Virus record (IMG/VR): IMGVR_UViG_2513237141_000003
Coordinates: 1-64,000 of that record
Strand: one strand, 5' to 3'
Length of the DNA: 64,000 nt
Source of the DNA: a virus
Lineage: Duplodnaviria; Heunggongvirae; Uroviricota; Caudoviricetes
Shown: in pieces, positions 3,456 through 63,919 of the stretch
Numbering within the stretch: position 1 is the first letter of the stretch
Layout of the letters: every line of letters starts with the position of its first letter
Notes under the pieces: model-generated
Seen by the model: the letters and a program-made list of their open reading frames with translations, nothing else
Told to the model about the DNA's origin: nothing
The model's database searches: none
Made by a program: the position numbers and the translations under genes

Positions 3456-3464
3456 GGGGATTGT

Positions 3465-4661: not shown

Positions 4662-4668
4662 GGGATGA

Positions 4669-20781: not shown

Positions 20782-20825
20782 TCTGAAAACCACCCGTTCG
20801 CAGCGGGTTAAACCAAGGAGACCAA
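20781..20825 (+). repeat. 45-bp direct repeat copy B
   Basis: two mismatches vs copy A. Confidence 0.75.
20793..20823 (+). promoter_or_regulatory. hairpin-SD cassette (plus-strand copy)
   Basis: part of a 45-bp direct repeat; DUF3310 gene. Confidence 0.6.
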
Positions 20826-20826
20826 C

Positions 20827-21225
20827 GTGACAGACAACGTAAACAATCCCGCCCACTATGGCGGCAAGGACAATCCGTTCGAAACGATCAAGGTTCTGGA
20901 GGCGTGGCTGACGCCGCAGGAAGTCGTCGGCTTCCTCAAGGGCAACGTCATCAAGTACCAGTCGCGTGCCAACGCCAAGAACGGCGCGGAAGATTACGCG
21001 AAATCATCCTGGTACGCGAACCGGCTCGCCGAGTTCATCAAGACCGTCAATCTGCCGACCGCGCCAGTCGTGAACCCCAAGCAGGCCGAGGCTGACGGCA
21101 AGATCATCTTTGCGCAGGCCGCCAAGATTCAGATCCTGCGAGATGGCATCCGCGGCGCCATGTTCAAAATGGCTTCGCGCAACCCGCTCCGCTCGACTCT
21201 GAAGAAGCTACTGGAGATTGCCTGA
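20827..21225 (+). CDS. DUF3310-family phage protein
   Basis: N-terminal NNPAHYGG...E.I.VLEAW signature; GTG after cassette. Confidence 0.6.
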   Translation: MTDNVNNPAHYGGKDNPFETIKVLEAWLTPQEVVGFLKGNVIKYQSRANAKNGAEDYAKSSWYANRLAEFIKTVNLPTAPVVNPKQAEADGKIIFAQAAKIQILRDGIRGAMFKMASRNPLRSTLKKLLEIA

Positions 21226-28187: not shown

Positions 28188-29039
28188 TCAGAACTCGAGC
28201 GCTGGCACTGGGGCTTCCGGCACGCTGGTGTCGGCCTGTAGATCGACGGTCTCAATCTCGACGACGGGCACGGCCGCCTCTGCCGGCTGCTCGATCTCGA
28301 CCGGTGCCAGGTCGATCGCGCGACCCTCGTGGGTGGGGGCCTCGACTTCCTTGTGCTCGGCGTCGAGGTCGAGGAACGCTCCCCGGCCTTCAGTCAGCTT
28401 GCGGATCGAGGCCAGGTCGATCTCTGCCGCTCCTTGCTCACCGGCCTTGTTGATGGCGGTCGCGGCCTTGCGGGCAACCGCAACGACCTCGGACAAGCGC
28501 TCCTGCTGCGCGGGCGAGAGCATGGCGCCGAGTGATCGGGCCTTGTCGGCGGCATCGCGCACCTTCTTGACATCGAGGTTCTGCAAGCCGGCCTCCATGA
28601 GCCCGATCAAATCACGGACCTCGCTGTTGATGGCGCGCGCGGCCTGAGCATCGTCCGCGGCCACGCGACCCGGGATGACGTAGATACCGATGCGCGTGGT
28701 CTTGGCGCGAGCGTTAAACTCCTCAGCCAAGGACTGGGCCTCGGTCACTCTCTCCCCAAGCTGATCGGCTCGCTCTTCAGGACAGAGCAGGCCGAAAGCC
28801 GTCTGCACGCACAGGTTCGAGATGACCTGTCGCGCGCGGTTGCGGATCTTCGTGGCCTCCTCGTGCTCGGCCGGATCGGCAACCGTGCGCTCGGTCTCCC
28901 ATTTCGCTCGCAGCTTGCCTTCCTCGTCGAGCGTGTCGGCCTCGATCGTGTTCTTGATGTACGAGACGTTGCCAGTGAGGGAGGTCTTGAGAACGACGAG
29001 CAGGCCGGGGCGGATGGTGGAAGCTTTGATCTCAGTCAT
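28188..29039 (-). CDS. hypothetical protein
   Basis: 283 aa; cassette upstream. Confidence 0.55.
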   Translation of the reverse strand: MTEIKASTIRPGLLVVLKTSLTGNVSYIKNTIEADTLDEEGKLRAKWETERTVADPAEHEEATKIRNRARQVISNLCVQTAFGLLCPEERADQLGERVTEAQSLAEEFNARAKTTRIGIYVIPGRVAADDAQAARAINSEVRDLIGLMEAGLQNLDVKKVRDAADKARSLGAMLSPAQQERLSEVVAVARKAATAINKAGEQGAAEIDLASIRKLTEGRGAFLDLDAEHKEVEAPTHEGRAIDLAPVEIEQPAEAAVPVVEIETVDLQADTSVPEAPVPALEF

Positions 29040-29276: not shown

Positions 29277-30959
29277 TTAGAGGTCCAGCGCGCGGCCGCC
29301 GGAGACGGCCGCCAACTCGACGACGTTCTCAGGCGCGGAGGCAAAGCGGGCCCGCTTCTCGGCCCACTCCTTCAGCTTTTTGATCTTGGCCTCGGCGGTC
29401 TGGGCTAGCGGCGTCGTGGCCTTGGCGCACTTGACGAGGTCGGCGACCTTGATCGGCCGCTCGCCGTCGGCGAAGGCGGCGAACATGGCGCTGGGGACGA
29501 GCTCGGCGATCTCCGATCCGGTGAATTTATCGGTCGCCGCCACGATCAGTGGCAAATCGTCCTGATCGAGGTCGTCGAGCTTCCGCCCCTTGGCCTTGAG
29601 CGCCGCCCGCAACACCTCCAGGCGCTCCCGCTTGTTCGGCAGGTCGACGAAGAACAATTCGTCAAACCGGCCCTTGCGCAGGAACTCGGGCGCATTGGTC
29701 GTTATGCTGTCGAGATCGTTGGCGGTGGCGATGACAAAGGCCTCGTGCGGCTCGTTCATCCACTGCAGCAGCGCGCCGAGTTGGTCGCTCGACACGCCGC
29801 CATCGGCTGCGCCGCCGGTGGCGCCAGCGAGCGCCTTCTCGACCTCGTCGATCAGGAGCACGCAACGCCCAATCGCTTCGATGGTGCGAAGCGCCTTGCG
29901 TAGGTTGGCCTCACTCTCACCAACGAACTTGCCCTTGAGGGCGCCGAGGTCGAGCTTGATCAACGGACAGCCGAATGCCGAGGCGAGTGCCTTGGCGGTC
30001 AGCGTCTTGCCGCAGCCGGGGATGCCGCCGAGGAAGCAGCCCTTGGGCGGCGGCAGGCCATAGGCGCGGGCCTTCGCGCTGTACGCCAGCTTGCGCTCCA
30101 ACGCCCACGCCTTGAGGACTTCGAGACCGCCGACGCCGTCGATGCCGTCGGGCAGGGGGTCCATCCACTCCAACACGCCCGACTTGGAGATGACGCGCTT
30201 TTTCTCCTTGGTCACGGCGATCGGGTCGATCTTGCGCAGCTGCACCAGGCTCTTGGCGTAGCAGGCCTGAGCCTCCTCACCGGAGAGGCCGGTCGCAGCA
30301 TCAATCGCCGCATCCCGAACGCCGTTGGGTGCGGCGAGCGCGCGCATCGGCTTGGTGGGATCAGGGATAGGCATCCGCGTTGCCGCATCGAGGATCGGCT
30401 TGCCGGTGTCCGGATCGACCTTGTTCTCGAACTCAGGCAACGAGTTGATCTGGGCATCGAGCAGGGCCGCAACCTCGTTGCGGTCCGGCATCGGCCATTC
30501 GATCACGGTGGCATGGTTGCCGAGCTCGGCCGGCACGTCGCCCGAGGGCGAGATCACGATCAGGGCCTGTGCTGCATCGCGCGGCATGCCGGGCAGGTCG
30601 AGGGCCAGGTTGCGCACCTGACGGCAGGTCACCATGCCGCCAGGGCCGACGATCCACGGCGGCAGGTCGCGCATGATCCATGCGCCGCGATCGCTCTTGG
30701 CCTCCGCGCGGCTCCGGATCACCTTCAAGGTCTCGCCGATGTCCATCGTCTCGGGGCCGAACTCATTCTGCTCGCCCTTGACATCGACGACGCCGCGGCC
30801 GCAGTCCCACGATCTCGGGATATAGCCGGCGGCGATCGCCGCCTCCTTGAGGTACTTCTCGACCCGGGGCTCCTCTTTCGTCACGATCCAGATCAACGGA
30901 TTGCGCGCGCGAAGCAGGAAGGCGACGTCGGCCGCCACTTCTTCAGACTTGGTTTTCAC
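29277..30959 (-). CDS. AAA+ ATPase (classical clade) with ~300-aa N-terminal domain
   Basis: Walker A GIPGCGKT; Walker B LLIDEVE; second region of homology RKGRFDELFFVDLP; GTG start after cassette. Confidence 0.8.
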   Translation of the reverse strand: MKTKSEEVAADVAFLLRARNPLIWIVTKEEPRVEKYLKEAAIAAGYIPRSWDCGRGVVDVKGEQNEFGPETMDIGETLKVIRSRAEAKSDRGAWIMRDLPPWIVGPGGMVTCRQVRNLALDLPGMPRDAAQALIVISPSGDVPAELGNHATVIEWPMPDRNEVAALLDAQINSLPEFENKVDPDTGKPILDAATRMPIPDPTKPMRALAAPNGVRDAAIDAATGLSGEEAQACYAKSLVQLRKIDPIAVTKEKKRVISKSGVLEWMDPLPDGIDGVGGLEVLKAWALERKLAYSAKARAYGLPPPKGCFLGGIPGCGKTLTAKALASAFGCPLIKLDLGALKGKFVGESEANLRKALRTIEAIGRCVLLIDEVEKALAGATGGAADGGVSSDQLGALLQWMNEPHEAFVIATANDLDSITTNAPEFLRKGRFDELFFVDLPNKRERLEVLRAALKAKGRKLDDLDQDDLPLIVAATDKFTGSEIAELVPSAMFAAFADGERPIKVADLVKCAKATTPLAQTAEAKIKKLKEWAEKRARFASAPENVVELAAVSGGRALDL

Positions 30960-30963
30960 GATT

Positions 30964-31006
30964 GGTCTCCTTGGAGGGAAATGCCGGGCGCTGCGAACGC
31001 CCGGCG
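30964..31006 (-). promoter_or_regulatory. hairpin-SD cassette
   Basis: gccgggcgCTGCGAAcgcccggc; AAA+ gene. Confidence 0.6.
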
Positions 31007-31014
31007 GGTTGAAG

Positions 31015-32109
31015 TCAGATGTGGCAGTCGACGACGGCGAGCCAGGTCTCCGGGGGCAGGTCGTCAAGCAGCTTGGCGAACTCCTCGTCCCAGACGTCGC
31101 CGTCCTTCTCGTTGGATACGCAGGCGAACCAGCCCATCTCGCCTCGTTCGTACCATTGGCCGTCTTTCACGACGGCGAAGGTCTGCACGGCGCGGCGTCG
31201 GGCGCGGGTGGCCACCTGAGCCCGTGTCATCCAGAACTTCTTGATGACATCGTCATCATCGAAGAAGCCGATTATCTCGGCTTTCTTGAGGTCCTCGATC
31301 GGGGGCTGGCTCCAGTATGATTCGCGGGTCTGCTCGATGTCGCCGCCGCACTCCTCCTTGACTGTATCCCACGACTTGTAGGAGCGGCCGGCGATGACCT
31401 CCTGCGCTTTATCGAACTGCTTCAGTGCAGCGACCTCCGCCTCGTTGCGGAGCGCTTCGAGCGGGATGTCCTTGAGCTGGGCGACGTTGCCGACGTTCTT
31501 CCACCTCGACGGCCACTTCGTCTTTACGCCTTTGCCGTTGCAGTGAGGGCAGGGCCTCGGGCCGTCATCGCGCAATTGCTTCCCCTTGTGACAGAAGTCG
31601 CAAATCTCCTCATTGTCAGGGTCAGTCTCCGGCTGATAGTTCGGGGCGAACATGCCAGCCCAGCGGCCGCCGATCGTCCAGCCATCCCATTTCGCATTGG
31701 GGTTGGTGTGGCGATAGAAGCGGCCGTCGCGCTCGAAGGCGCCGAAATAGTCGGTAGCGCATTCGGCCGGCGTCGCATAGCCGAGGCCGTGCTGGCGGGC
31801 CTCCACGGCCGGCAACTCCAGCTCGACGGCGCCATCCGGTAGCTTGAACTCCTTGTCACCCCAGCTCTGATCTGGAACTTCGACATAGAAACATGGGTCG
31901 TATCGATCCAGGAACGTGCCGCACACGAGCTTCACCACGGACACCGGCTTGTTGAACTGCTCCATGACCTCGTCGGTCTTGTCCACGTCGATGACGTATT
32001 GGTCGTCAATTCCCGTGCACTCGAACTCGTGGAACGGCTGTAGGATCGGGCGGAGGCTCTCCTCGTCGAGCTTGGTGGGAGAGATGACGAGAACGGTAAA
32101 GTGACTCAT
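31015..32109 (-). CDS. hypothetical protein with CxxC...CxxC zinc ribbon
   Basis: 364 aa; WDGWTIGGRW segment; cassette upstream. Confidence 0.55.
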   Translation of the reverse strand: MSHFTVLVISPTKLDEESLRPILQPFHEFECTGIDDQYVIDVDKTDEVMEQFNKPVSVVKLVCGTFLDRYDPCFYVEVPDQSWGDKEFKLPDGAVELELPAVEARQHGLGYATPAECATDYFGAFERDGRFYRHTNPNAKWDGWTIGGRWAGMFAPNYQPETDPDNEEICDFCHKGKQLRDDGPRPCPHCNGKGVKTKWPSRWKNVGNVAQLKDIPLEALRNEAEVAALKQFDKAQEVIAGRSYKSWDTVKEECGGDIEQTRESYWSQPPIEDLKKAEIIGFFDDDDVIKKFWMTRAQVATRARRRAVQTFAVVKDGQWYERGEMGWFACVSNEKDGDVWDEEFAKLLDDLPPETWLAVVDCHI

Positions 32110-56545: not shown

Positions 56546-56606
56546 ACCGTGACCTTCAACCAACAGAGCTATCCATACCCGCGACCCTATTGAGGGTCGT
56601 CGTGTG

Positions 56607-56682
56607 TCTGGACGTAGCGCAGTTGGTAGCGTACCGCACTTGGAATGCGGGGGTCGTCGGTTCGAGCCCGACCGTCCAGACC
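56607..56682 (+). tRNA. tRNA-Pro (TGG)
   Basis: cloverleaf; acceptor ctggacg/cgtccag; anticodon loop cuUGGaa; CCA encoded. Confidence 0.8.
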
Positions 56683-56684
56683 AA

Positions 56685-56772
56685 TCCGTGAGTGCCGGAG
56701 TGGTCAATCGGGGCGGGCTGTAAACCCGCCGGCTTTCGGGCCTTCGCTAGTTCAAATCTAGCCTCACGGACC
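56685..56772 (+). tRNA. tRNA-Tyr (GTA), long variable arm
   Basis: acceptor ccgtgag/ctcacgg; loop cuGUAaa; CCA. Confidence 0.8.
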
Positions 56773-56775
56773 AAT

Positions 56776-56851
56776 TACCCGCTTGGTCCAGTGGTCTAAG
56801 ACGTCGGACTTTGACTCCGAAGACAGTCGTTCAAATCGACTAGCGGGTGCC
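56776..56851 (+). tRNA. tRNA-Gln (TTG)
   Basis: acceptor acccgct/agcgggt; loop cuUUGac; CCA. Confidence 0.75.
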
Positions 56852-56894
56852 AAGAGATTGACCAGCCGCAGGTTGATCGGCTATCAGGCTGGGC

Positions 56895-57401
56895 ATGACC
56901 CTTGCCAAGGCTTCCCTCGTTGTAGCAGTCCTCATCGCCGCCGCGTCCAGCGCAGCCGGCGAGGGGCAGCCTATTACGGAGGCCATGAAGCCGGTCATGG
57001 CCGCAGCCCGCATCTTTGCGCTCGAAAACCACCTCCACGGCGACATCGCTGTTGCCGATGAGGACGAGGGCCACATCGGCCGCAGTTTCGAGGTCAACCA
57101 CGCCCCGGGCGAAGCCTGCACCTTCACGATGCGGCGCCGCGGCGGGCCAGTGATCGAGACGATCAGCTTCGATCGTCTGTCCGGTGAATATCACGCCTGG
57201 CCGCAGCACGGTTATGCGCGGCTCGCCATTTCAGGCCAGCCTGGCGCTCAGTGCGAGGTCAGCGGCGGCGTCAAGCGCTGCTCGCCCAACCTGGATATGC
57301 TGCTGATGGTCGAAGGCTCGCCGAGCGAGCTCGACCTGGCGCGGCGCGCGCTGGATTACATCTTCGAGAACGTGTGCCGTCCGGCACAACTGCCATTCTG
57401 A
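56895..57401 (+). CDS. secreted hypothetical protein inside the tRNA island
   Basis: signal peptide; 168 aa. Confidence 0.5.
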   Translation: MTLAKASLVVAVLIAAASSAAGEGQPITEAMKPVMAAARIFALENHLHGDIAVADEDEGHIGRSFEVNHAPGEACTFTMRRRGGPVIETISFDRLSGEYHAWPQHGYARLAISGQPGAQCEVSGGVKRCSPNLDMLLMVEGSPSELDLARRALDYIFENVCRPAQLPF

Positions 57402-57493
57402 AAGCTCAAGGTCACACCATGTCGTCGTTTAGTCACTCATCACATATCGCCGGAAGGGTGACGCGGTAACACGACCGCCGCCCTTCCTGTTTG

Positions 57494-57579
57494 CGGAGGG
57501 TGGCGCCCATGGTGGGCAAACAGTCTCGAAAACTGCGCCCCGGTCTCCCGGTGATGGTTCGAATCCTTCACCCTCCGCC
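57494..57579 (+). tRNA. tRNA-Ser (CGA), long variable arm
   Basis: acceptor ggagggt/accctcc, G73, CCA; loop cuCGAaa; coordinates +/-2. Confidence 0.7.
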
Positions 57580-57580
57580 A

Positions 57581-57656
57581 CGCCGAGGTAGCTCAGCTGG
57601 TAGAGCGGCGCGTTGAAAGCGCGCGCGTCGGAGGTTCGAACCCTTCCCTCGGCACC
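57581..57656 (+). tRNA. tRNA-Phe (GAA)
   Basis: acceptor gccgagg/cctcggc; loop uuGAAag; CCA. Confidence 0.8.
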
Positions 57657-57670
57657 AACTCTTCCCAAGG

Positions 57671-57746
57671 TGCCGGCTTAGTTCAATTGGTTAGAACGCT
57701 CGATTGTGGCTCGGGAAATCGCGGTTCGAGCCCGCGGGCTGGTACC
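57671..57746 (+). tRNA. tRNA-His (GTG), alpha-proteobacterial type (no G-1, A73)
   Basis: D/anticodon/T arms canonical; loop uuGUGgc; acceptor has three G-U pairs. Confidence 0.6.
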
Positions 57747-57785
57747 AACTTTCGCGGACTCGAACGGTGTGCTAAGGCGCACGCC

Positions 57786-57977
57786 ATGACCTTCGAGGAT
57801 GAGCTCACCGCACTGCTCATGAAGTATCTCGGTCCAGACGCGCGCCCGCGAGACTGGTACCGGATCGGCGGGGAACTGGAAACCGCGTTGCACTGGGTGG
57901 ACTCGCGGTCGTCGGCTAGGTTTACTCCAGAGGAGTTTGACGCCGATCTTGAAGCCGACGAGGCGGAGAGGGAGTGA
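57786..57977 (+). CDS. hypothetical acidic protein (64 aa) between tRNAs
   Basis: ORF MTFEDELTALL... Confidence 0.4.
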   Translation: MTFEDELTALLMKYLGPDARPRDWYRIGGELETALHWVDSRSSARFTPEEFDADLEADEAERE

Positions 57978-57982
57978 ATTTC

Positions 57983-58056
57983 GACGATGTGGCCGAGTGA
58001 TGAGGCAGACGGCTGCAACCCGTCTCACGTTGGTTCGATTCCATCCATCGTCTCCA
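57983..58056 (+). tRNA. tRNA-Cys (GCA)
   Basis: acceptor gacgatg/catcgtc; loop cuGCAac; CCA. Confidence 0.75.
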
Positions 58057-58254
58057 ATTCCGAGACCTCGGTAACTCCATCCCGCCAGATGATCACTGGC
58101 GCGGCCTGGCTCGAGGTGCGGATGCTCGCAAGGTAGACGGCGTCGCGGCTTGCGGCCTGCGGCGCCCGTGTCCATGGCTTGTCCCGTCCCGCCTTGCGTT
58201 TAGGTCTCTGCGTCGTCCGCTAGCGGCGCTCCGGCTAACGGGAAAAAGTTTCGT

Positions 58255-58330
58255 TGGGTTGTAGCTCAGTCGGTAGAGCAGGCGGCTGTTAACCGCCGCG
58301 TCGCTGGTTCGAATCCAGCCTTCCCAGCCA
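58255..58330 (+). tRNA. tRNA-Asn (GTT) with two U-U mismatches in the acceptor stem
   Basis: D, anticodon (cuGUUaa) and T arms canonical; CCA present; pairs 5-68 and 6-67 mismatched. Confidence 0.55.
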
Positions 58331-58331
58331 A

Positions 58332-58406
58332 GCCGGGGTAGCTCAGCGGTAGAGCAGCGACTTTGTAAGTCGACGGTCGTCGGTTCAAATCCCTCTCTCG
58401 GCACCA
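58332..58406 (+). tRNA. tRNA-Thr (TGT)-like, non-canonical T-stem (possible pseudo-tRNA)
   Basis: acceptor gccgggg/tctcggc (2 G-U); loop uuUGUaa; T-stem has two central mismatches. Confidence 0.45.
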
Positions 58407-58444
58407 ATTTCCTTCCCCATCTTCCCCAACAGACGAGTCCCCAC

Positions 58445-59749
58445 ATGCCTGATATCGGCGAGCGCAAGCTCGCGACGATCCGTCGCGTCTCGAAGATCGA
58501 CCCCATCGAGGGTGCTGACCGCATCGTCAAGGCCACCATCGACGGCTGGGAGCTGGTCACCCAGAAGACCAACTACCAGGTCGGCGATCTCTGCCTCTAC
58601 TTCGAGATCGACAGTTTCTTGCCGGTGCGGCCAGAGTTCGAGTTCCTGCGCGACAAGTGCTTCAAGTCGGTTGCAGGCCTTGGTGACGGCTTCCGCATCA
58701 AGACCATGAAGATGAAGGGCGTGGTGTCGCAGGGGCTTAGCCTGCCGCTGTCGGACTTCTTCGATAAGGAAGATGACGGCCGCTACTTCTACATCGCCCC
58801 GGAGACCAAATGGGAGCGTGAACGCCTCGAACGTCGTGAATGGGTCGAGCCGACCCGGGTCTTCCTTGAGGAGGGCATGGACGTCACCGACTACCTCGGC
58901 GTCAAGAAGTATGAAAAGCCGGCCGCCGGTAATGGCGGCGGGTCGAAGCTTGGCCCGACGCATGCCCGCGGCGGCTTCCCCGACTTCCTGCAAAAGACCG
59001 ATCAGGAGCGCATCCAGAACTGTCTGAGCGGTGTGCTGAAATGGATCTATTACGGAGCACCCGTCGTCACCGAGGTGTTTAATCCCGTAGTCATCGAAAA
59101 CCTGAACCTGGGTCGGGTCGAGAACAGCGCGGAGTCTTACTACTTCAAGTCCGGCGACCAGTGGTTCCACAAGGCTGCGGTCCGCAACGATGATGAGACC
59201 ATCGCCAAGCGCCAGCAGTTCGAAGTGACGCTGAAGCTCGATGGATCGTCGATGACGGTCTATCACAACGACTACAGCTACGGCGTCTGCTCGCGAAACT
59301 TCGACCTCAAGCGGGACGAGGCGTCGCTATTCTGGCAGCAGGCCGCCGATGGGATCATCGCGGCGTTGGTTGTCGTCGGCAAGAACGTGGCGCTCCAAGG
59401 CGAGCTGATGGGCCCCGGCATTCAGGGTAACCGCGAAGGATTCGCCACTAACCAGTTCTTCGCCTTCGACGTCTATGACATCGATCAGTCGAGGTACATG
59501 ACGCCGGATGAGCGGTTCGGCTTCCTGCGCAATCTGCAGGGCATTGGCTGCGGCATCCAGCACGCGCCGGCACTCGCTCATGACTACGTGCTCACCGAGA
59601 CGACAACGGTGAATGATCTGCTCAAGATCGCGGATCGGGCCAGCTTCAACAACCCGATCGCTGAAGGTGTCGTGTTCAAGTCCCTCGTCGCCGGCGGACC
59701 GACCTTCAAGGTGATCAACAACAAGTTCCTGTTGGCTGAGAAGGACTGA
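58445..59749 (+). CDS. ATP-dependent RNA ligase (Rnl-like nucleotidyltransferase) with N-terminal OB-like domain
   Basis: KxDG motif I (VTLKLDGSS); covalent nucleotidyltransferase layout; embedded in the tRNA island. Confidence 0.75.
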   Translation: MPDIGERKLATIRRVSKIDPIEGADRIVKATIDGWELVTQKTNYQVGDLCLYFEIDSFLPVRPEFEFLRDKCFKSVAGLGDGFRIKTMKMKGVVSQGLSLPLSDFFDKEDDGRYFYIAPETKWERERLERREWVEPTRVFLEEGMDVTDYLGVKKYEKPAAGNGGGSKLGPTHARGGFPDFLQKTDQERIQNCLSGVLKWIYYGAPVVTEVFNPVVIENLNLGRVENSAESYYFKSGDQWFHKAAVRNDDETIAKRQQFEVTLKLDGSSMTVYHNDYSYGVCSRNFDLKRDEASLFWQQAADGIIAALVVVGKNVALQGELMGPGIQGNREGFATNQFFAFDVYDIDQSRYMTPDERFGFLRNLQGIGCGIQHAPALAHDYVLTETTTVNDLLKIADRASFNNPIAEGVVFKSLVAGGPTFKVINNKFLLAEKD

Positions 59750-59761
59750 ATACACTTTCAT

Positions 59762-59836
59762 TGCAGGGTGGAGCAGCGGTAGCTCGGCGCGCTCATAACG
59801 CGTAGGTCGCCGGTTCGATCCCGGCCTCTGCAACCA
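59762..59836 (+). tRNA. tRNA-Met/Ile2 (CAT), elongator-type
   Basis: acceptor tgcaggg/ctctgca, with 1-72 paired; loop cuCAUaa; CCA. Confidence 0.75.
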
Positions 59837-59852
59837 ACTTCCAAGAGGTCAC

Positions 59853-60326
59853 ATGGCCGGCAACTACACCGCCCTCCAGACGATCTGGGCGACGCTGCCG
59901 GCGACCATGCTGACCGGCGACAAGCTCGCCTTCGTCAATCAGCAGATGACGGCCGGCCCCGCGGTCGACGTGCCCCGCAGCGAGGTCAGGAAGGTGCTGC
60001 AGGCCTCTGGCGCGCTGGACATCCTGCAGGCCTACGCGGCCAACCCTCCGGCTGGCGCAACCGATGCCGTCAAGGCCTCGGTCAACTACATTCTCGCCGT
60101 CGTCGGCTACGAGGCGACCTACAGCGACACGCTCGAGACCTCGAACTCGACCTATTCGAGCGCCATCCAGAGCATGGTGCCGAACCTCATCACCGCGGGC
60201 ATCTCGCAGGACACGATCTCCGCCATGATGGCCCTGATCGAGCCTCTGATCCCCTGGTGGCAGGCGAATGGCTTCGCCGCGCGCGTCAATATCTGGGATC
60301 TGATCAGCGCAGGCAATCTCTACTAG
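59853..60326 (+). CDS. hypothetical protein
   Basis: 157 aa. Confidence 0.5.
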   Translation: MAGNYTALQTIWATLPATMLTGDKLAFVNQQMTAGPAVDVPRSEVRKVLQASGALDILQAYAANPPAGATDAVKASVNYILAVVGYEATYSDTLETSNSTYSSAIQSMVPNLITAGISQDTISAMMALIEPLIPWWQANGFAARVNIWDLISAGNLY

Positions 60327-60549
60327 TTTTCAAAAGTAAATCCCGAGGCCCATCGGTGCGTTTGCCGTGCACGGCGCGCATCGGTCTTGCGGAGCGGTGA
60401 GTAGCGAGAGGCCTTCGGGCATCACGCAACTCCGGATCTCATGCACACCCGCGAACAAAACCGACACCCGCCGGGGTCCTAGGCCGGCGAAGACGGGACA
60501 ATGGCGTGGGCATCATTCCCTAAACCTGCACCCAAGGAGGTCATTCCCC

Positions 60550-60756
60550 ATGACCGCTGCTAAGCACTCTGTAGCCATGGCCGAAGGCGCTCTCGTGCCC
60601 GGCGACGTCGTTCGCCTCAAGGGTCAGCTGGTCAAGATGACCATTGACTATCTGTGCCAGGGCGACAACGCGCGATGCTCATGCGTATGGTTTGTCGACA
60701 ACCATCTGCAACGCGAAACCTTCTCGCTCCAGTCTCTTGCGAGGGTGCGGGAATGA
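60550..60756 (+). CDS. hypothetical protein
   Basis: AAGGAGG SD. Confidence 0.45.
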   Translation: MTAAKHSVAMAEGALVPGDVVRLKGQLVKMTIDYLCQGDNARCSCVWFVDNHLQRETFSLQSLARVRE

Positions 60757-60932
60757 CCATCCCCGCCGACAGCGTCGTCTTCTATCGCGACGAAAAGAAC
60801 CGGATGATCCTGTTCGAGATCAACGGCCGCGTCGTCGCGCGCATGCCCATCACCGAATGGTCGTTTGCGATTGCAAACCCAGTCACGGTGAATGCGCCTG
60901 CCTACGATTTCAGCCGCGGCGAACCGGCATGA
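60753..60932 (+). CDS. hypothetical protein
   Basis: ATGA overlap. Confidence 0.4.
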   Translation: MTIPADSVVFYRDEKNRMILFEINGRVVARMPITEWSFAIANPVTVNAPAYDFSRGEPA

Positions 60933-61144
60933 AGGTTTCGATCTTCTGCGGCTCCAGCCTGGTCGCGTTAGCTGTAGTGGCGGCATTTCTCTCGTTCGGT
61001 GCCGGCAAGTATCGCGCCCACCAACTTGCCGTCAGCGAGTGGTGCCGGTCCCAAGGCTACTACATGGCGGTCGTAGGCGAAGAGGGCGGTGACTATTGCA
61101 TCGTTCACGACCGGCTGATGGTGCCGAAGGACATCGGCCCATGA
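60929..61144 (+). CDS. small membrane/secreted protein
   Basis: N-terminal hydrophobic segment. Confidence 0.45.
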   Translation: MKVSIFCGSSLVALAVVAAFLSFGAGKYRAHQLAVSEWCRSQGYYMAVVGEEGGDYCIVHDRLMVPKDIGP

Positions 61145-61728
61145 AGTGGAACGACATCAAGATCGACGGCAATCCGGCCTCCTTCCTCAACTACGAGAAC
61201 GCGCGCCTCTACGTCTGCGAGCGCTCAGGCCGGGTCGAGGCCTGGGTCGACGGTGACAAGGTCGGCAACTTCGAGACCATCGACGAGGCGAAGGCGCGGG
61301 CCTGCCTCAAGGTCGGCATTCCGGTGGAGATCCCAAGGTCGGTCGCCAAGCCCAAGAAGCAGCTCGCGCCGCCGCCCAAGGTCAAGTGCAAGGCGAAGGT
61401 CGAGACCGTCAGGGATACCCCCAAGGGGCGCCGCTTCGGCGACCCGATCGTGAAGCGCTTCGAGCACGAGAAGAAGCTCAAGCGCTTTCCCATAGCCAAC
61501 ATGAGCGAGCCGCCGGCGCTGGTCGTGGCAGTCGCGCCCGAGCCGATGCCAGCTCCTGAGCCCATCTATCGCATGGCTGGTTACTGCGCTTGCGGCGTGC
61601 GGCTCGGTCGCATGGGCAAGTGCCCTGCGCTCTGCACGCCGGTGGCCGAGGAGCCTCCGCAATATCGCGGGCCCATGGTGGTTGGCCGCTCTCATATCGG
61701 CCGCATAGGAGCGCCGGTGTCATGGTGA
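61141..61728 (+). CDS. hypothetical protein
   Basis: ATGA overlap. Confidence 0.5.
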   Translation: MKWNDIKIDGNPASFLNYENARLYVCERSGRVEAWVDGDKVGNFETIDEAKARACLKVGIPVEIPRSVAKPKKQLAPPPKVKCKAKVETVRDTPKGRRFGDPIVKRFEHEKKLKRFPIANMSEPPALVVAVAPEPMPAPEPIYRMAGYCACGVRLGRMGKCPALCTPVAEEPPQYRGPMVVGRSHIGRIGAPVSW

Positions 61729-62081
61729 AGCTGTTGGGAGCGAGCGCGCCTGAGACCTCCGCCGTGCAGCGCCACTCGCCCAGCGAGATCGACGCCGCCA
61801 AGCAACTCTTGCAGCGCCACGGCTACGTCGTGGTCGAGCGCGACCGCGTCAAGGTCGTCGAGGCCGACGTGATCGTCGGCGAGTTAGATCTGAAATATGC
61901 CAGTAATCCTTGGCAGCTCATCGAATACGTTCGGCGCTGCCTCCTCGACAAGCTCTTCGACGGCATCGCCGATATGGGCGGCTGCCTGAAAGAGACGGAG
62001 AGTAATGTCACTCACCCGCACCGAGGTCGTCGCCTGGTGTCTGAAGTGACCCTGATCGTGCCGGAGCAGGCCAAGAGCTGA
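61722..62081 (+). CDS. hypothetical protein
   Basis: overlapping start. Confidence 0.45.
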   Translation: MVKLLGASAPETSAVQRHSPSEIDAAKQLLQRHGYVVVERDRVKVVEADVIVGELDLKYASNPWQLIEYVRRCLLDKLFDGIADMGGCLKETESNVTHPHRGRRLVSEVTLIVPEQAKS

Positions 62082-62290
62082 TGACCGAGGCGCTCACTGC
62101 CGACGAGGCTCTGATCGCCGACATCATGCGCGCCGAGCTGCACGATCGCTTCCACGGCAAGAGGGTCACTCGGCAAGAGGTCGCCGAGGTGGTGGCAGGT
62201 CTCCTCGCAATGGACCCCGAAGACATCGACGTCGCCTACGTGGCCCAGACTGGCCAGTTCTTCATCGACATCAGGACGCATTCCCCATGA
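62081..62290 (+). CDS. hypothetical protein
   Basis: ATGA overlap. Confidence 0.45.
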   Translation: MTEALTADEALIADIMRAELHDRFHGKRVTRQEVAEVVAGLLAMDPEDIDVAYVAQTGQFFIDIRTHSP

Positions 62291-62487
62291 GCACCCCCTC
62301 CGTCACCGATGCGCGCACTGCGCTCGCATCGGCTATTGCCACGACTGTTGCCTGTCGCATCGACAACGGCTCCGCAGCCACACTGACGCCCGACCAGGTC
62401 GCAGAGCTGACCGGCGCGATCGAGGGCATGATCGATGCAGTGGTCTCGGCCAAGCTGCTGGCCATCAGCGCGGCGGCCGCGTCATGA
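62287..62487 (+). CDS. hypothetical protein
   Basis: ATGA overlap. Confidence 0.45.
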   Translation: MSTPSVTDARTALASAIATTVACRIDNGSAATLTPDQVAELTGAIEGMIDAVVSAKLLAISAAAAS

Positions 62488-62630
62488 TGTATGTCGTCTA
62501 CGGCCTGGCCCTTTGGAAGGGCATCGACATCCTTTTCGGCACCTACCGCCTCATCAAGGACATGTTCTTCACCGACCGCGGCCCCAGCATCTTTGACGGC
62601 CCGCCGATCGGCGGCTCCGGCATCGGCTAG
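62484..62630 (+). CDS. 48-aa membrane micro-protein
   Basis: ATGATG start; MMYVVYGLALWKGIDILFG... Confidence 0.35.
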   Translation: MMYVVYGLALWKGIDILFGTYRLIKDMFFTDRGPSIFDGPPIGGSGIG

Positions 62631-63362
62631 ATGTCCGGCCTCGACGCGATCAAGCATCCGCGCGGCGACGACCTGATCGCCTCCTACAAGGAGCGGTTCG
62701 GCGACAAGACGCTGATCGCCTTCTCCCGCGGCAAGGACTCGGTCGCAGTCGCGCTTGCGCTGCGCGACAAGATCGAGGTGATCCCATTCTACTACGACTA
62801 TCCGATGAAGCTCAGCTTCGTCGAGGAGAGCCTCGCCTATTACGAGAAGCATCTGTTCGGCAGGCGCATCCTGCGCATGCCGGACGTGGCCTTCAACAAG
62901 CATCTGCGCGACGGCTTCCTGCAGCCCGTGCGCCGCGCTGAAATTCTCACCAACGCCTCGCTGCCGCGCCTCGACCACCCCGACATCCTGCGCATGGTCA
63001 AGAAGCAGGAGGGGATTGAAGGCACTAGCATCCTGACCGCCACCGGTGTCCGCGCCCTCGACAACGCGATCCGCTTCCTCTCAATCAAGAAGCACGGCCC
63101 GATCCGCTCTACCGCCGGCAACTGGGCGCCGATCTGGCACTGGTCGAAGCAGGATCTGCTGGATGCGATCGAGAGCAGCGGCATCTCGCTGCCGCCCGAT
63201 TACACCTTCCTGCCGCGATCGCTCGACGGCTTCTCATACCTTTTCCTGATCCCGCTCAAGGAACGCTTCCCCGAGGACTACCAGCGCATCATCGAATGGC
63301 TCCCCTTAGCGCCAGTCGAGGAGAAGCGCTGGGAGCTCTATCAAAGGTACTTCGCACAGTGA
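62631..63362 (+). CDS. PAPS-reductase-family PP-loop ATPase (DndC/QueC-like superfamily)
   Basis: PP-loop SRGKDS with LIAFSRGKDSVAVALAL context. Confidence 0.75.
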   Translation: MSGLDAIKHPRGDDLIASYKERFGDKTLIAFSRGKDSVAVALALRDKIEVIPFYYDYPMKLSFVEESLAYYEKHLFGRRILRMPDVAFNKHLRDGFLQPVRRAEILTNASLPRLDHPDILRMVKKQEGIEGTSILTATGVRALDNAIRFLSIKKHGPIRSTAGNWAPIWHWSKQDLLDAIESSGISLPPDYTFLPRSLDGFSYLFLIPLKERFPEDYQRIIEWLPLAPVEEKRWELYQRYFAQ

Positions 63363-63919
63363 GTGAGCAGTCGACCTTTTTCAACGCCGTTGGATGGATC
63401 GGCACGGCGACTGGCGGCGCGTTCAACGTTCTGGACCCAAAGGTCGAGGACGTCCGCCTCAACGACATTGCGCACGCATTATCGCGCCAGTGCCGCTACG
63501 GCGGCCATTGTCGTCGCTTCTATTCGGTTGCCGAGCACTCCGTTCACGTCGCCCACAACGTGGCCGGTCCCAATCGCGTCAAACTCGCAAGCCTCCTGCA
63601 CGATGCGAGCGAGGCATTCCTCGTCGACATCCCGCGACCGATCAAGAATGCGATGCCAGAGTATCGCGCGATCGAGGATCACCTGATGCGCGTGATCTAC
63701 ACGCGGTTCGGGCTCGATGGTTTGTGGCCGCTTCCACCCGAGATCGTAGATATCGACGTACGTATTCTGCACGACGAGTGCGAGCAGAACGTCGCCAAAC
63801 CGGCTGTGCCGTGGGGTTTCCCCGGTGATCCGGTCGGGGTGACCCTCCGCTACTGGAGCCCCGAGGTAGCGGCCTCGTGGTTCCTTTCCGAGTTCTACCG
63901 CTATGGTGGCAATGACTGA
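63358..63919 (+). CDS. HD-domain phosphohydrolase (YfbR-like 5'-nucleotidase type)
   Basis: H..H (AEHSVHV), HD (LLHDASEA), downstream D; GTGA overlap. Confidence 0.7.

What the first reader, a model, noticed from the sequence alone, without database searches (positions are those of the whole stretch)
56590..63919. tRNA island with ligase-based repair potential
Ten phage-borne tRNAs are present: Pro, Tyr, Gln, Ser, Phe, His, Cys, Asn, Thr-like and Met. Two have suspicious stems. Asn has two U-U mismatches in the acceptor. The Thr-like tRNA has two mismatches in its T-stem. They are interleaved with small secreted or hypothetical ORFs. Immediately downstream lie an Rnl-type RNA ligase with a KxDG motif (58445-59749), then a PP-loop/PAPS-reductase-family ATPase and an HD phosphohydrolase. 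A ligase beside a tRNA set is the classic arrangement for countering host anticodon nucleases (PrrC, RloC, VapC or colicin-like). No Pnkp-like kinase/phosphatase was seen; the HD protein could supply 2',3'-cyclic phosphate or 3'-phosphate end healing. tRNA-His is the alpha-proteobacterial type (no G-1, A73), which gives a host-range clue.
Basis: partly seen in the sequence, partly recalled or inferred. Interest (0 to 1): 0.6.

Follow-up and report, generated by a model that had tools for sequence, protein, structure and literature searches.

The report
Prophage tRNA island with embedded RNA ligase

Summary
ARAGORN finds exactly the ten named tRNAs at 56608-59836, all on the + strand and all with encoded CCA. 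The reported stem mismatches are real. The 434-aa ORF is an intact RNA ligase.

The ligase belongs to the Rnl5 family (DraRnl/NgrRnl), not Rnl1. It lies inside the tRNA array, 38 nt after tRNA-Thr and 12 nt before an initiator-type tRNA. The window is a prophage of Bradyrhizobium sp. Tv2a-2, which fits the alpha-proteobacterial tRNA-His.

The repair reading is only partly supported. The closest ligase relatives sit in clear RNA-repair clusters: Pnkp-type phosphatase, Rnl5, T4 Rnl1-type ligase, DNA ligase, kinase. Some of these also adjoin tRNAs. This window has none of those partners.

The PP-loop and HD genes are not healing partners. The PP-loop gene sits upstream of the terminase in related prophages that have one tRNA and no ligase.

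Most likely the tRNAs supplement or replace host tRNAs, and the ligase seals 3'-OH/5'-phosphate nicks in base-paired RNA without end healing. The second point is inferred.

This is a new member of a known kind, of moderate interest. The tRNA-Ser looks like the known non-canonical (8/4) type.

The parts
56608..56683 (+). tRNA-Pro(UGG), canonical cloverleaf, C1-G72, A73, CCA encoded; anticodon loop CUUGGAA has A37 rather than the usual G37
   Evidence: (67.6 bits); A37 is also seen in 3 of 4 phage tRNA-Pro(UGG) in other loci
56686..56773 (+). tRNA-Tyr(GUA), class II with a long variable arm, C1-G72, A73, CCA
   Evidence: (52.3 bits)
56777..56852 (+). tRNA-Gln(UUG), A1-U72, G73, CCA
   Evidence: (61.1 bits)
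56895..57401 (+). 168-aa ORF with an N-terminal signal-peptide-like segment, no family match. A 61%-identical homolog follows the single tRNA in a related B. septentrionale prophage
57494..57580 (+). tRNA-Ser(CGA), non-canonical. Best read as the (8/4) allo-type: 8-bp acceptor G57495-G57502 paired with C57569-C57576, 4-bp T stem with one U.U, long D stem with a small loop, long variable arm, G73, no U8
   Evidence: (best Rfam model is tRNA-Sec, 40.3 bits, below GA 47); class described in PMC5389517
57582..57657 (+). tRNA-Phe(GAA). The relative in the B. septentrionale prophage differs by compensatory stem changes
   Evidence: (62.8 bits)
57672..57747 (+). tRNA-His(GUG) of the alpha-proteobacterial type lacking G-1: T at -1, G1.U72, A73, 9-nt D loop, G37
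   Evidence: (52.9 bits); PMC3064791
57786..57977 (+). 63-aa ORF between tRNA-His and tRNA-Cys, no family match
57983..58056 (+). tRNA-Cys(GCA), U73, one U.U mismatch in the T stem, 3-bp D stem
   Evidence: (54.8 bits)
58057..58254 (+). 198-nt spacer with no + strand ORF, no RNA family hit and no significant fold
   Evidence: z = -1.48
58255..58330 (+). tRNA-Asn(GUU), U1-A72, G73, with U5.U68 and U6.U67 mismatches in the acceptor stem
   Evidence: (60.4 bits)
58332..58406 (+). tRNA-Thr(UGU) with U50.U64 and C51.C63 in the T stem, and G27.A43 giving a 4-bp anticodon stem. Two relatives have fully paired T stems
   Evidence: (53.7 bits)
58445..59749 (+). Rnl5-family ATP-dependent RNA ligase, 434 aa. 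N-terminal OB domain (res 9-102), NTase domain (res ~255-434), lysine nucleophile K264 (nt 59234-59236). Two insertions relative to NgrRnl, at about res 106-141 and 196-254
   Evidence: NgrRnl 5COT, E 4.6e-61; TIGR02306, 161.4 bits against cutoff 151.15
59762..59836 (+). Initiator-type tRNA(CAU), 12 nt after the ligase stop codon. 84% identical to an E. coli tRNA gene beside amiC/argA, which I take from my own knowledge to be the metZWV initiator locus. A11:U24, A73, but U1-A72 and anticodon-stem pairs G29-C41, C30-G40, G31-C39
   Evidence: (61.2 bits)
59853..60326 (+). 157-aa ORF starting 16 nt after the last tRNA, no family match
62631..63362 (+). PP-loop (adenine-nucleotide alpha-hydrolase) fold protein, motif F31-S-R-G-K-D36, no conserved Cys. 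Judged NOT part of the tRNA/ligase unit: it sits upstream of the terminase in related prophages
63359..63919 (+). HD phosphohydrolase of a widespread phage family (phrog_318, annotated as dNMP phosphatase). Judged NOT part of the tRNA/ligase unit

Best explanation
Shown. This is a cargo region of a temperate Bradyrhizobium prophage, placed at the end of the early/middle genes about 8 kb upstream of the terminase. It holds ten tRNA genes matched to the host, and one enzyme gene wedged between tRNA-Thr and an initiator-type tRNA. The host match shows in the tRNA-His that lacks G-1, the (8/4) tRNA-Ser and the encoded CCA ends. The enzyme is an Rnl5-family ATP-dependent RNA ligase with every catalytic residue intact.

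Inferred. (1) The tight spacing (1-38 nt) and the lack of a convincing terminator suggest that tRNAs and mRNAs are made as polycistronic transcripts and cut apart by RNase P and 3' processing. (2) The tRNAs supplement or replace host tRNAs during lytic growth, which includes buffering against host tRNA-cleaving defences. (3) The ligase adenylates K264 and seals 3'-OH/5'-phosphate breaks in base-paired RNA. That is the kind of break metal-dependent (Toprim, PIN, HNH) tRNases leave in tRNA stems and loops, so no kinase or phosphatase is needed. (4) The PP-loop and HD proteins act elsewhere. The PP-loop protein is a lineage-conserved gene at the head of the packaging region. The HD protein is a common phage nucleotide phosphohydrolase.
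For: tRNAs. They appear functional in this lineage, because tRNA-Phe differs from a related prophage's copy by compensatory stem changes.

Host: 100% identity to Bradyrhizobium sp. Tv2a-2 proteins; GcrA; tRNA-His identity set.

Ligase family and integrity. The residues equivalent to NgrRnl R4, D53, K121, T145, D146, R149, K170, D172, R190, E227, F248, E312 and K326 are all conserved.

OB domain: after NgrRnl itself, it best matches the Trbp111/EMAPII/PheRS-B2/MetRS-C class of tRNA-binding OB folds.

Genomic association with RNA repair: the closest homologs lie in clusters of HAD_PNKP, Rnl5, Rnl1, DNA ligase and kinase. At least 17 of 72 viral Rnl5 loci have an Rnl1 homolog in the flank (17 within 7.4 kb, 16 within 4.6 kb), always on the same strand.

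Association with tRNAs: tRNA density is highest in the first 500 bp from Rnl5, at 0.159 per kb in 7 loci, against 0.024-0.099 per kb further out. L002 and L094 have both the tRNAs and the repair cluster.

Cargo history: related Bradyrhizobium prophages have one tRNA and no ligase at the same place, so the array expansion and the ligase are both cargo specific to this lineage.

Chemistry: OLD and AriB leave 5'-P/3'-OH ends. A single nick in the anticodon stem was sealed by T4 Rnl1 and Rnl2 without healing (PMC12445682; PMC12409363). Rnl5 enzymes seal 3'-OH/5'-PO4 nicks when the 3'-OH strand is RNA (PMC5397189).
Against: No biochemical or expression data exist for this protein.

The physiological role of Rnl5 is uncharted, and the only genetic evidence, from DraRnl, points to DNA repair after irradiation.

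In four cultured phage groups (phiN3, 44RR2.8t, PAK_P4, CHA_P1) the Rnl5 gene has no tRNA within 5 kb. Fifty-four of 72 viral loci show no tRNA in the flank. Adjacency to tRNAs is therefore a minority pattern and could reflect shared cargo hot-spots.

Relatives keep Rnl5 together with Rnl1 and Pnkp, which may mean Rnl5 does something other than tRNA repair.

Three tRNAs (Thr, Asn, Cys) carry stem defects that may signal decay rather than adaptation.

Host tRNAs and host nucleases could not be examined.
Confidence: 0.55

Rival explanations
1. The ligase works on DNA or on replication and repair intermediates, and its place among the tRNAs is incidental. It would seal nicks whose 3' end is ribonucleotide, such as unremoved primers, misincorporated rNMPs or damage. 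tRNA arrays and small accessory genes simply gather in the same variable cargo region upstream of the late genes.
For: Deleting DraRnl delays genome reassembly after irradiation, and the authors state it is unresolved whether Rnl5 and Rnl2 enzymes repair DNA, RNA or both (PMC5397189). In 44RR2.8t the gene lies among replication and nucleotide-metabolism genes (rnh, gene 32, gene 59, frd, td). In PAK_P4 and CHA_P1 it lies near the primase/helicase and polymerase. A DNA ligase gene is part of the conserved cluster around the closest homologs. The island region is clearly variable cargo in this prophage lineage.
Against: The same clusters hold the canonical tRNA-repair enzymes Rnl1 and Pnkp parts. 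tRNA genes are enriched directly next to Rnl5. The OB domain is of the tRNA-binding fold class. Here the gene is packed between tRNAs with 38-nt and 12-nt gaps.
Confidence: 0.3
2. One reading: a T4-like heal-and-seal system. The HD protein removes 2',3'-cyclic or 3'-phosphates, the PP-loop ATPase assists, and the ligase then rejoins tRNAs cut by PrrC, RloC or colicin-type anticodon nucleases.
For: All three genes are on one strand within 5.5 kb. By my own knowledge, HD domains can have 2',3'-cyclic phosphodiesterase and phosphatase activity, as in the E. coli CCA-adding enzyme. The top fold matches of the PP-loop protein include the tRNA-modifying enzymes TtuA and TilS, although at low TM of about 0.45-0.49.
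Against: No 5'-kinase is present, and metal-independent nucleases leave 5'-OH ends that an ATP-dependent ligase cannot use. Nine unrelated ORFs separate the island from these two genes. PP-loop homologs sit upstream of the terminase in phages with no ligase and no tRNA or one tRNA. HD homologs are widespread in phages without RNA ligases, for example Stx, Rhizobium and Caulobacter phages. None of 75 Rnl5 loci carries the PP-loop protein, and only one carries an HD homolog, 8 kb away. Rnl5 is not Rnl1.
Confidence: 0.05
3. Pure translational supplementation with partial decay. The tRNAs only adjust tRNA supply for phage gene expression. Several copies (Thr, Asn, Cys, perhaps Ser) are degenerating. 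The ligase is a selfish or neutral passenger with no role tied to tRNAs.
For: The T-stem defects of Thr are absent from two relatives, which keep paired stems. Asn has two adjacent U.U mismatches. Related prophages manage with a single tRNA and no ligase. Six of the tRNAs match the phage's preferred codons UAC, UUC, CAC, UGC, AAC and UCG.
Against: All ten keep CCA, intact anticodon loops and Rfam scores of 52-68 bits, with Ser best matching the tRNA-Sec model at 40 bits. Gln(UUG), Thr(UGU) and Pro(UGG) cognately decode A-ending codons that the phage itself rarely uses, at 8-20%. The ligase has every catalytic residue intact.
Confidence: 0.15

Closest known systems
[quoted passage not shown]
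   Same: N-terminal OB domain plus C-terminal adenylyltransferase domain. E 4.6e-61 to NgrRnl, and above the TIGR02306 equivalog cutoff. All ATP, metal and nucleophile residues are conserved.
   Different: 434 aa against about 340. Two insertions, at about res 106-141 and 196-254, the first predicted with low confidence. Encoded by a temperate alpha-proteobacterial prophage and flanked by tRNA genes. Activity not tested.
Phage T4 tRNA repair (Pnkp + Rnl1) countering the PrrC anticodon nuclease
   Same: A phage-borne RNA ligase in a genome that also carries tRNA genes. The closest Rnl5 homologs are physically clustered with Rnl1-type ligases and Pnkp-type phosphatase and kinase genes.
   Different: The window has no Rnl1, no Pnkp and no tRNA-Lys. 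Rnl5 seals duplex nicks with 3'-OH/5'-P ends. It cannot use the 2',3'-cyclic-P/5'-OH ends that PrrC makes unless they are healed first.
tRNA sets plus RNA-repair enzymes of jumbo phages (Iyer et al. 2021, PMC7824862)
   Same: The idea is the same: phages supply tRNAs and RNA ligases against host attacks on the translation apparatus. Several jumbo phages (GAP32, BcepSauron, Munch) carry homologs of this ligase.
   Different: This is a temperate prophage with an integrase, not a jumbo lytic phage. The set is minimal: one ligase, no end-healing enzymes, no RlaP.
tRNA clusters of alpha-proteobacterial phages with (8/4) tRNA-Ser and tRNA-His lacking G-1 (Mukai et al. 2017, PMC5389517)
   Same: A Sec-like or allo-type tRNA-Ser with a serine anticodon, and a tRNA-His with A73 and no G-1, in one phage tRNA cluster of an alpha-proteobacterial host.
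   Different: The tRNA-His here reads more naturally as 7/5 than as 8/4. The cited paper's supplementary figures were not available for a direct comparison.
Phage tRNAs that replace or resist cleaved host tRNAs (T5 tRNA-Tyr against retron PtuAB, PARIS AriB, P2 OLD)
   Same: The phage carries tRNAs of species known to be targeted elsewhere (Tyr, Thr-UGU, initiator). The window's Thr(UGU) lacks the paired CNG motif and has a 4-bp anticodon stem, the two features reported to give OLD resistance.
   Different: No host nuclease is known here, and host tRNAs could not be compared. The Thr features may be coincidental: a related prophage's Thr keeps the CNG motif.

Membership tests
Rnl5 (DraRnl/NgrRnl) RNA ligase | C-terminal nucleotidyltransferase domain with the KxDG lysine nucleophile and motifs III, IV and V | tested here: met
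   PF09414, E 2.4e-24. K264-L-D266-G, E320, E407 and K422 align to NgrRnl K170, D172, E227, E312 and K326.
Rnl5 (DraRnl/NgrRnl) RNA ligase | Signature N-terminal OB domain fused upstream of the NTase domain | tested here: met
   PF21189, E 2.6e-35, res 9-102. The model superposes on the NgrRnl N domain at rmsd 1.5-2.2 A with 40% identity. R7, D56 and K155 match NgrRnl R4, D53 and K121.
Rnl5 (DraRnl/NgrRnl) RNA ligase | Passes the curated family model (TIGR02306 RNA_lig_DRB0094, equivalog) | tested here: met
   161.4 bits against a cutoff of 151.15.
Rnl5 (DraRnl/NgrRnl) RNA ligase | Mn-dependent sealing of 3'-OH/5'-PO4 duplex nicks with RNA on the 3'-OH side | not testable with these tools
   Needs purified protein. 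Property taken from PMC5397189.
T4-type heal-and-seal tRNA repair (Pnkp + Rnl1) | Rnl1-type ligase (PF09511 with the T4 Rnl1 C-domain) | tested here: not met
   The ligase matches PF09414 and PF21189 only. tblastn with three Rnl1 queries finds nothing in the 64-kb window at E <= 1e-6.
T4-type heal-and-seal tRNA repair (Pnkp + Rnl1) | 5'-kinase and 2',3'-cyclic or 3'-phosphatase end-healing enzyme | tested here: not met
   No HAD_PNKP, P-loop kinase, metallophosphoesterase, 2H or RtcB hit among about 50 window ORFs scanned, nor by tblastn. The scan did not cover every small ORF.
Phage tRNA gene cluster | Several adjacent genes that fold as tRNAs with intact anticodon loops | tested here: met
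   Ten ARAGORN calls. Nine Rfam tRNA hits at 52-68 bits, and one Sec-like hit at 40.3 bits.
(8/4) allo-type tRNA-Ser | 12-bp acceptor branch split 8/4, Sec-like long D stem with a small loop, long variable arm, G73, serine anticodon | tested here: inconclusive
   The best Rfam model is tRNA-Sec rather than tRNA. An 8-bp acceptor and 4-bp T stem are possible, with D stem GCCC(A)/(U)GGGC, V arm CCGG-UCUC-CCGG, G73 and anticodon CGA. The 7/5 reading uses the same C65 with G49 instead of G8 and cannot be excluded without covariation. No homologous copies were found.
Alpha-proteobacterial tRNA-His lacking G-1 | No encoded G-1, A73 discriminator, G1-U72, 9-nt D loop (extra U20a), G37 | tested here: met
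   The -1 base is T. G1.U72, A73, 9-nt D loop and loop UUGUGGC. Criteria from PMC3064791.
Bacterial initiator tRNA | C1xA72 mismatch, A11:U24, and three consecutive G-C pairs at the base of the anticodon stem | tested here: inconclusive
   84% identical to an E. coli tRNA gene beside amiC/argA, which I take from my own knowledge to be the metZWV initiator locus. A11:U24 and A73 are present. However, position 1-72 is a U-A pair and the stem reads G-C, C-G, G-C. The criteria are from my own knowledge.
PAPS reductase (CysH) sensu stricto | Pfam PF01507 match and a conserved C-terminal catalytic cysteine | tested here: not met
   No Pfam hit at E <= 0.1. No invariant Cys among 48 homologs. The fold matches the PP-loop superfamily broadly (TtuA, TilS, GMP synthetase, CysH) at TM 0.45-0.49.
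PP-loop / adenine-nucleotide alpha-hydrolase superfamily | Rossmann-like fold with an N-terminal SGGxDS-type PP-loop | tested here: met
   Invariant F31, S32, G34, K35 and D36. AF2 pLDDT 95.9. Foldseek probability 1.0 to many PP-loop enzymes. The profile aligns its motif to SGGVDS of GMP synthetase.
YfbR-like HD 5'-deoxynucleotidase | HD motif and a match to the curated family model | tested here: inconclusive
   PF12917 scores 21.8 bits, below the 25.9 cutoff, and NF003009 is far below its cutoff. phrog_318 'dNMP phosphatase' matches at 3.6e-55. The best solved relative is the uncharacterised Atu1052, 2GZ4. Substrate not testable.

The most novel reading that the evidence does not exclude
Phage Rnl5 ligases may be one-enzyme tRNA repair devices aimed at metal-dependent tRNases such as Toprim OLD/PARIS-type, PIN/VapC and HNH. 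These nick tRNA stems and loops and leave 3'-OH/5'-phosphate ends. The Rnl5 OB domain would descend from the Trbp111/EMAPII tRNA-binding fold and would help engage the tRNA. This prophage would be the minimal form: resistant or replacement tRNAs plus a sealer, with no healing enzymes. If so, the Rnl5 family would gain its first physiological RNA substrate.
Probability: 0.2. Interest if true: 0.65.

Novelty: new member of a known kind. Interest (0 to 1): 0.38.

Why it matters
The Rnl5 family is large: at least 7955 homologs at E <= 1e-10. It is well understood structurally, but its biological substrate is still unknown.

Three observations give a concrete, testable hypothesis that Rnl5 repairs tRNA. 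An intact Rnl5 gene is wedged inside a tRNA array. Its closest relatives lie in Pnkp/Rnl1 repair clusters. Its OB domain has a tRNA-binding-type fold.

The case also shows a temperate rhizobial prophage carrying ten tRNAs, among them a likely (8/4) tRNA-Ser and an initiator-type tRNA. This could matter for how Bradyrhizobium phages cope with tRNA-targeting defences.

Apart from that, this is an ordinary example of phage accessory cargo.

Tried and rejected
- Megablast of the region against 50,697 phage records found no match.
- A genome-contig scan with the ligase found only three distant relatives and no host clue. The host came instead from exact protein identity.
- A pattern scan for other copies of the (8/4) tRNA-Ser in IMG/VR found none, so no covariation test was possible.
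- Distant blastn of the Ser-Phe-His segment against phages gave only generic tRNA similarity.
- The promoter and terminator scan found no sigma-70-like promoter and no convincing terminator inside the island.
- Repeat analysis found only tRNA-to-tRNA similarity.
- The 198-nt Cys-Asn spacer has no ORF, no Rfam hit and no significant fold.
- A YrlA (Y RNA-like) hit at 58279-58389 scored 28.4 bits against GA 69 and spans two tRNA halves. I rejected it as tRNA-likeness.
- PADLOC on ten large prophage proteins gave only an IetA-like ATPase and a methyltransferase, and no tRNase.
- The look-up of the integrase flank to find attB failed because the contigs end 99 bp past the gene.
- Sequence searches of the OB domain alone for Trbp111-like families found nothing. 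Only the fold search showed the relationship.
- The supplementary figures of Mukai et al. are not held.
- I considered tRNA-dependent lysogeny (PMC10865867, seen) but could not test it without attB.

Full report
**1. What is there**

ARAGORN finds ten tRNA genes in the 64-kb window. Rfam's tRNA model hits nine of them at 52-68 bits, against a gathering score of 29. The tenth, Ser(CGA), scores best against the tRNA-Sec model at 40.3 bits, below that model's cutoff of 47. All ten encode the 3' CCA.

The genes are packed in blocks with 1-14 nt between neighbours:
- Pro-Tyr-Gln;
- Ser-Phe-His;
- Cys;
- Asn-Thr;
- the CAU tRNA.

Three small ORFs and one large ORF are interleaved.

- Asn has U5.U68 and U6.U67 in the acceptor stem.
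- Thr has U50.U64 and C51.C63 in the T stem, plus G27.A43.

**2. Source and host**

Two window proteins are 100% identical to NCBI proteins of Bradyrhizobium sp. Tv2a-2 on a 380-kb contig. These are the ligase ('RNA ligase family protein') and the PP-loop protein. The last 15.5 kb of the window is base-for-base identical to two public read-assembly contigs.

The window has the make-up of a temperate phage:
- an integrase at its start;
- a repressor-like regulator, a RecE-like exonuclease and an SSB;
- NinB and RusA;
- a primase-helicase;
- a ThyX-type thymidylate synthase;
- a GcrA-like regulator.

The identical contigs continue past the window end into the terminase and portal genes. The island therefore sits at the end of the early/middle region of a Bradyrhizobium prophage, about 8 kb upstream of the packaging genes.

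The gene has T at -1, G1.U72, A73, a 9-nt D loop and G37. Yuan et al. describe this set for the alpha-proteobacterial group that lacks G-1 (PMC3064791).

**3. The ligase**

The 434-aa product of 58445-59749 has an N-terminal OB domain (PF21189, E 2.6e-35) and a C-terminal RNA-ligase domain (PF09414, E 2.4e-24). It matches Naegleria gruberi RNA ligase at E 4.6e-61. It also passes NCBI's equivalog model for the Deinococcus DRB0094 ligase. It is therefore an Rnl5-family enzyme, not Rnl1 or Rnl2.

I mapped the residues that the NgrRnl structures show contacting ATP, the two metals and the nucleophile (PMC7261155). Every one is conserved:

| NgrRnl residue | Window protein |
|---|---|
| R4 | R7 |
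| D53 | D56 |
| K121 | K155 |
| T145 / D146 / R149 | T185 / D186 / R189 |
| K170 (nucleophile) | K264 |
| D172 | D266 |
| R190 | R284 |
| E227 | E320 |
| F248 | F341 |
| E312 | E407 |
| K326 | K422 |

. Two insertions relative to NgrRnl, at about res 106-141 and 196-254, explain the extra length. The first is predicted with low confidence.

A model of the N-terminal region has pLDDT of about 90 over res 8-110. It superposes on the NgrRnl N domain. After that, its best matches are PheRS beta-subunit, Trbp111, MetRS C-domains, EMAPII/p43 and Arc1p, at Foldseek E from 3e-3 to 0.3. This is the 'tRNA_bind' class of OB folds, which captures tRNA 3' ends (PMC11286949). It is a fold-level resemblance only. 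Sequence searches do not detect it.

**4. Is the ligase functionally tied to tRNAs?**

For a link:

- *Adjacency to tRNAs.* I fetched 72 viral loci that encode homologs and called tRNAs on them. Eighteen have a tRNA somewhere in the flank, nine within 2 kb and seven within 500 bp.
- *Density by distance.* tRNA density is highest in the first 500 bp, at 0.159 per kb, against 0.024-0.099 per kb further out.
- *Embedded arrangement elsewhere.* In L004, another ligase is embedded between tRNA-Gly and tRNA-Gln.
- *Repair clusters.* This is the more telling result. The closest non-identical homologs (63, 57, 56 and 54% identity: L091, L092, L002, L094) sit in a conserved cluster: Pnkp-type HAD phosphatase, Rnl5, T4 Rnl1-type ligase, DNA ligase and P-loop kinase, with NADAR or a metallophosphoesterase in some.
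- *Rnl1 nearby.* At least 17 of the 72 viral loci have an Rnl1 homolog in the flank, always on the same strand: 17 within 7.4 kb and 16 within 4.6 kb.
- *Both patterns together.* L002 and L094 combine the repair cluster with tRNA genes less than 350 bp upstream of Rnl5.
- *A cultured example.* In Aeromonas phage 44RR2.8t the gene lies 2.3 kb from rnlA and 4.6 kb from pseT.

Against a link:

- Four cultured phage groups have no tRNA within 5 kb.
- Most loci show none at all.
- The only genetic study of an Rnl5 enzyme points to DNA repair (PMC5397189).

Taken together, phage Rnl5 genes keep company with RNA-repair genes and, in a minority of cases, with tRNA genes. That general idea is already published for jumbo phages (PMC7824862).

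**5. What this phage lacks, and why that need not matter**

The window has no homolog of Rnl1, the HAD_PNKP phosphatase, the kinase or NADAR (tblastn). Family scans of about 50 ORFs found no kinase, phosphatase, 2H or RtcB protein. A T4-style heal-and-seal pathway is therefore absent.

Recent work shows that Toprim tRNases such as P2 OLD and PARIS AriB leave 5'-phosphate and 3'-hydroxyl ends. A tRNA nicked once in the anticodon stem was resealed by T4 Rnl1 and Rnl2 with no healing step (PMC12445682; PMC12409363). A nick in a tRNA stem is a 3'-OH/5'-PO4 nick in duplex RNA, which is the defined substrate of Rnl5. A stand-alone Rnl5 beside a tRNA set is therefore mechanistically coherent. This step is inference.

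**6. The PP-loop and HD proteins**

*PP-loop protein (62631-63362).* It has no Pfam or PDB sequence match but hits PHROG families annotated as 'PAPS reductase'.
- A deep alignment keeps the motif F-S-x-G-K-D and has no invariant cysteine.
- The AlphaFold model is confident, at pLDDT 95.9.
- It matches TtuA, TilS, GMP synthetase, APS/PAPS reductases and NcsA at TM 0.45-0.49.
- It is therefore a PP-loop-fold enzyme of unknown substrate, not a PAPS reductase proper.

Its homologs lie upstream of the terminase genes in several phages that have no ligase and no tRNA nearby. Two syntenic prophages, in B. erythrophlei and B. septentrionale, keep it at 71% identity. In the island position they carry a single tRNA, no ligase and no HD.

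*HD protein.* It belongs to a very common phage family (phrog_318, E 3.6e-55; 335 phage records). Its closest relatives are in Rhizobium, Agrobacterium, Sinorhizobium, Roseobacter and Caulobacter phages. Its best solved relative is the uncharacterised Atu1052.

None of the window's island or neighbouring proteins recurs beside Rnl5 homologs, apart from one distant HD copy. These two genes are therefore not part of a ligase module.

**7. The tRNAs themselves**

- *Ser(CGA).* It lacks U8 and has a long D stem with a small loop and a long variable arm. It can form an 8-bp acceptor with a 4-bp T stem. This fits the (8/4) tRNA-Ser that Mukai et al. found in tRNA clusters of alpha-proteobacterial phages, alongside tRNA-His lacking G-1 (PMC5389517). 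The 7/5 alternative cannot be excluded.
- *CAU tRNA.* It is 84% identical to an E. coli tRNA gene that lies beside amiC and argA. From my own knowledge I take this to be the metZWV initiator locus. It shares A11:U24 and A73, but has U1-A72 and a G-C, C-G, G-C stem. I read it as initiator-type, with reservations.
- *Thr(UGU).* The T-stem defects are specific to this copy. Relatives in L078 and in the B. erythrophlei prophage have fully paired T stems with compensatory differences.
- *Phe.* It differs from the B. septentrionale prophage copy by compensatory changes in two stems, which argues for selection on structure.
- *Pro(UGG).* It has A37, as do three of the four phage tRNA-Pro(UGG) in the other loci.
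- *Codon usage.* The window's genes are typical of a high-GC genome. Six tRNAs match preferred codons. Gln(UUG), Thr(UGU) and Pro(UGG) cognately decode A-ending codons that make up only 8-20% of their families. No host data were available for comparison.

**8. Verdict**

Right:
- There is a real tRNA island with an intact RNA ligase.
- That ligase family has genomic ties to RNA repair.

Wrong:
- It is Rnl5, not the T4-type enzyme.
- It lies inside the array rather than downstream of it.
- The proposed HD and PP-loop partners are unrelated.

The most likely working model has the tRNAs supplementing or replacing host tRNAs, and a stand-alone sealer of 3'-OH/5'-P nicks in structured RNA. The main rival is a DNA-repair or replication role, with incidental placement among cargo genes.

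This is a new member of a known kind. Its value is as a compact test case for the unknown physiological substrate of Rnl5 ligases.

Noticed in passing
window 57494-57580: The tRNA-Ser(CGA) is non-canonical. It scores better against Rfam tRNA-Sec (40.3 bits) than against the general tRNA model. It lacks U8, has a Sec-like D arm, and can form an 8-bp acceptor with a 4-bp T stem. This matches the (8/4) tRNA-Ser reported in tRNA clusters of alpha-proteobacterial phages (PMC5389517).
   Followed up: partly
window 59762-59836: The 'tRNA-Met' is initiator-type. It is 84% identical to an E. coli tRNA gene beside amiC/argA (the metZWV initiator locus by my own knowledge), with A11:U24 and A73. However, it has a U1-A72 pair and a G-C/C-G/G-C anticodon stem. 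It starts 12 nt after the ligase stop codon. One cited paper says phage-encoded initiator tRNAs are generally avoided (PMC10264068).
   Followed up: partly
window 56608-56683; L045, L063, L069: tRNA-Pro(UGG) has A37 in place of the G37 that carries m1G37 in bacterial tRNA-Pro (my own knowledge). Three of four phage tRNA-Pro(UGG) in unrelated viral loci also have loop UUUGGAA (loci listed are the likely carriers; the per-locus assignment was not printed). This may be a recurrent phage trait.
   Followed up: partly
window 56686-56773: tRNA-Tyr starts with C1-G72. Bacterial tRNA-Tyr normally has G1-C72, and C1-G72 is the archaeal/eukaryal identity pair (my own knowledge). It was not compared with host tRNA-Tyr.
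   Followed up: no
L002 748-9709; L091 3614-9279; L092 5191-11296; L094 2346-11544: A conserved phage gene cluster surrounds the closest homologs of the window's ligase: HAD_PNKP phosphatase, Rnl5, T4 Rnl1-type ligase, ATP-dependent DNA ligase and AAA_33/KTI12-type kinase, with NADAR or metallophosphoesterase in some. Three different polynucleotide ligases lie within about 5 kb.
   Followed up: partly
window 29277-31067 (- strand), with neighbours 28188-29039 and 31015-32109: An AAA ATPase matches IetA of the IetAS anti-phage system (PADLOC, E 2.2e-20) and phrog_8638 (E 1.3e-149). No IetS-like protease was detected next to it. It may be a prophage-borne defence gene or an unrelated ATPase.
   Followed up: no
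L084 14115-16765; L095 19855-20729; L096 19465-20726: Related Bradyrhizobium-type prophages encode a protein of about 1000 aa downstream of the portal. It combines an Acb1 domain (PF23474, the anti-CBASS phosphodiesterase family) with a NUDIX domain. The matching region of this prophage lies beyond the window end.
   Followed up: no
window 14160-14768: A GcrA cell-cycle-regulator homolog (PF07750, E 5.2e-17) is encoded in the prophage early region. This is a regulator specific to alpha-proteobacteria, carried by a phage.
   Followed up: no
window 57449-57494: A strong hairpin, GGAAGGGUGACGCGGUAACACGACCGCCGCCCUUCC followed by UGUUUGC, lies between the 168-aa ORF and tRNA-Ser (fold z = -2.06). 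It may be a weak terminator, attenuator or processing signal. The consensus scan did not call it.
   Followed up: no
window 1365-5864 (- strand): A block of apparent cargo lies next to the integrase: a radical-SAM protein (2320-3264), a Band_7/lipoprotein-like protein (3465-4661), an NMT1_3-like protein (4983-5864) and a 355-aa protein of unknown function.
   Followed up: no
window 19879-21935: A DHH/DHHA1 phosphoesterase (phrog_4771, E 8e-82), a DUF3310 protein and a thymidylate synthase lie in the replication module. DHH enzymes include oligoribonucleases and pAp phosphatases. No link to the ligase was found.
   Followed up: no
window 56683-59837: All ten tRNA genes encode CCA, and in nine of the ten the next base is A (CCAA).
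   Followed up: no
window 58332-58406; L095 6139-6213; L078 3580-3656: The window's tRNA-Thr(UGU) lacks the paired CNG motif and has a 4-bp anticodon stem (G27.A43). These are the two features reported to make phage tRNA-Thr resistant to the P2 OLD nuclease. The related B. erythrophlei prophage copy keeps G27.A43 but has the CNG motif, and L078 has both a 5-bp stem and the motif.
   Followed up: partly
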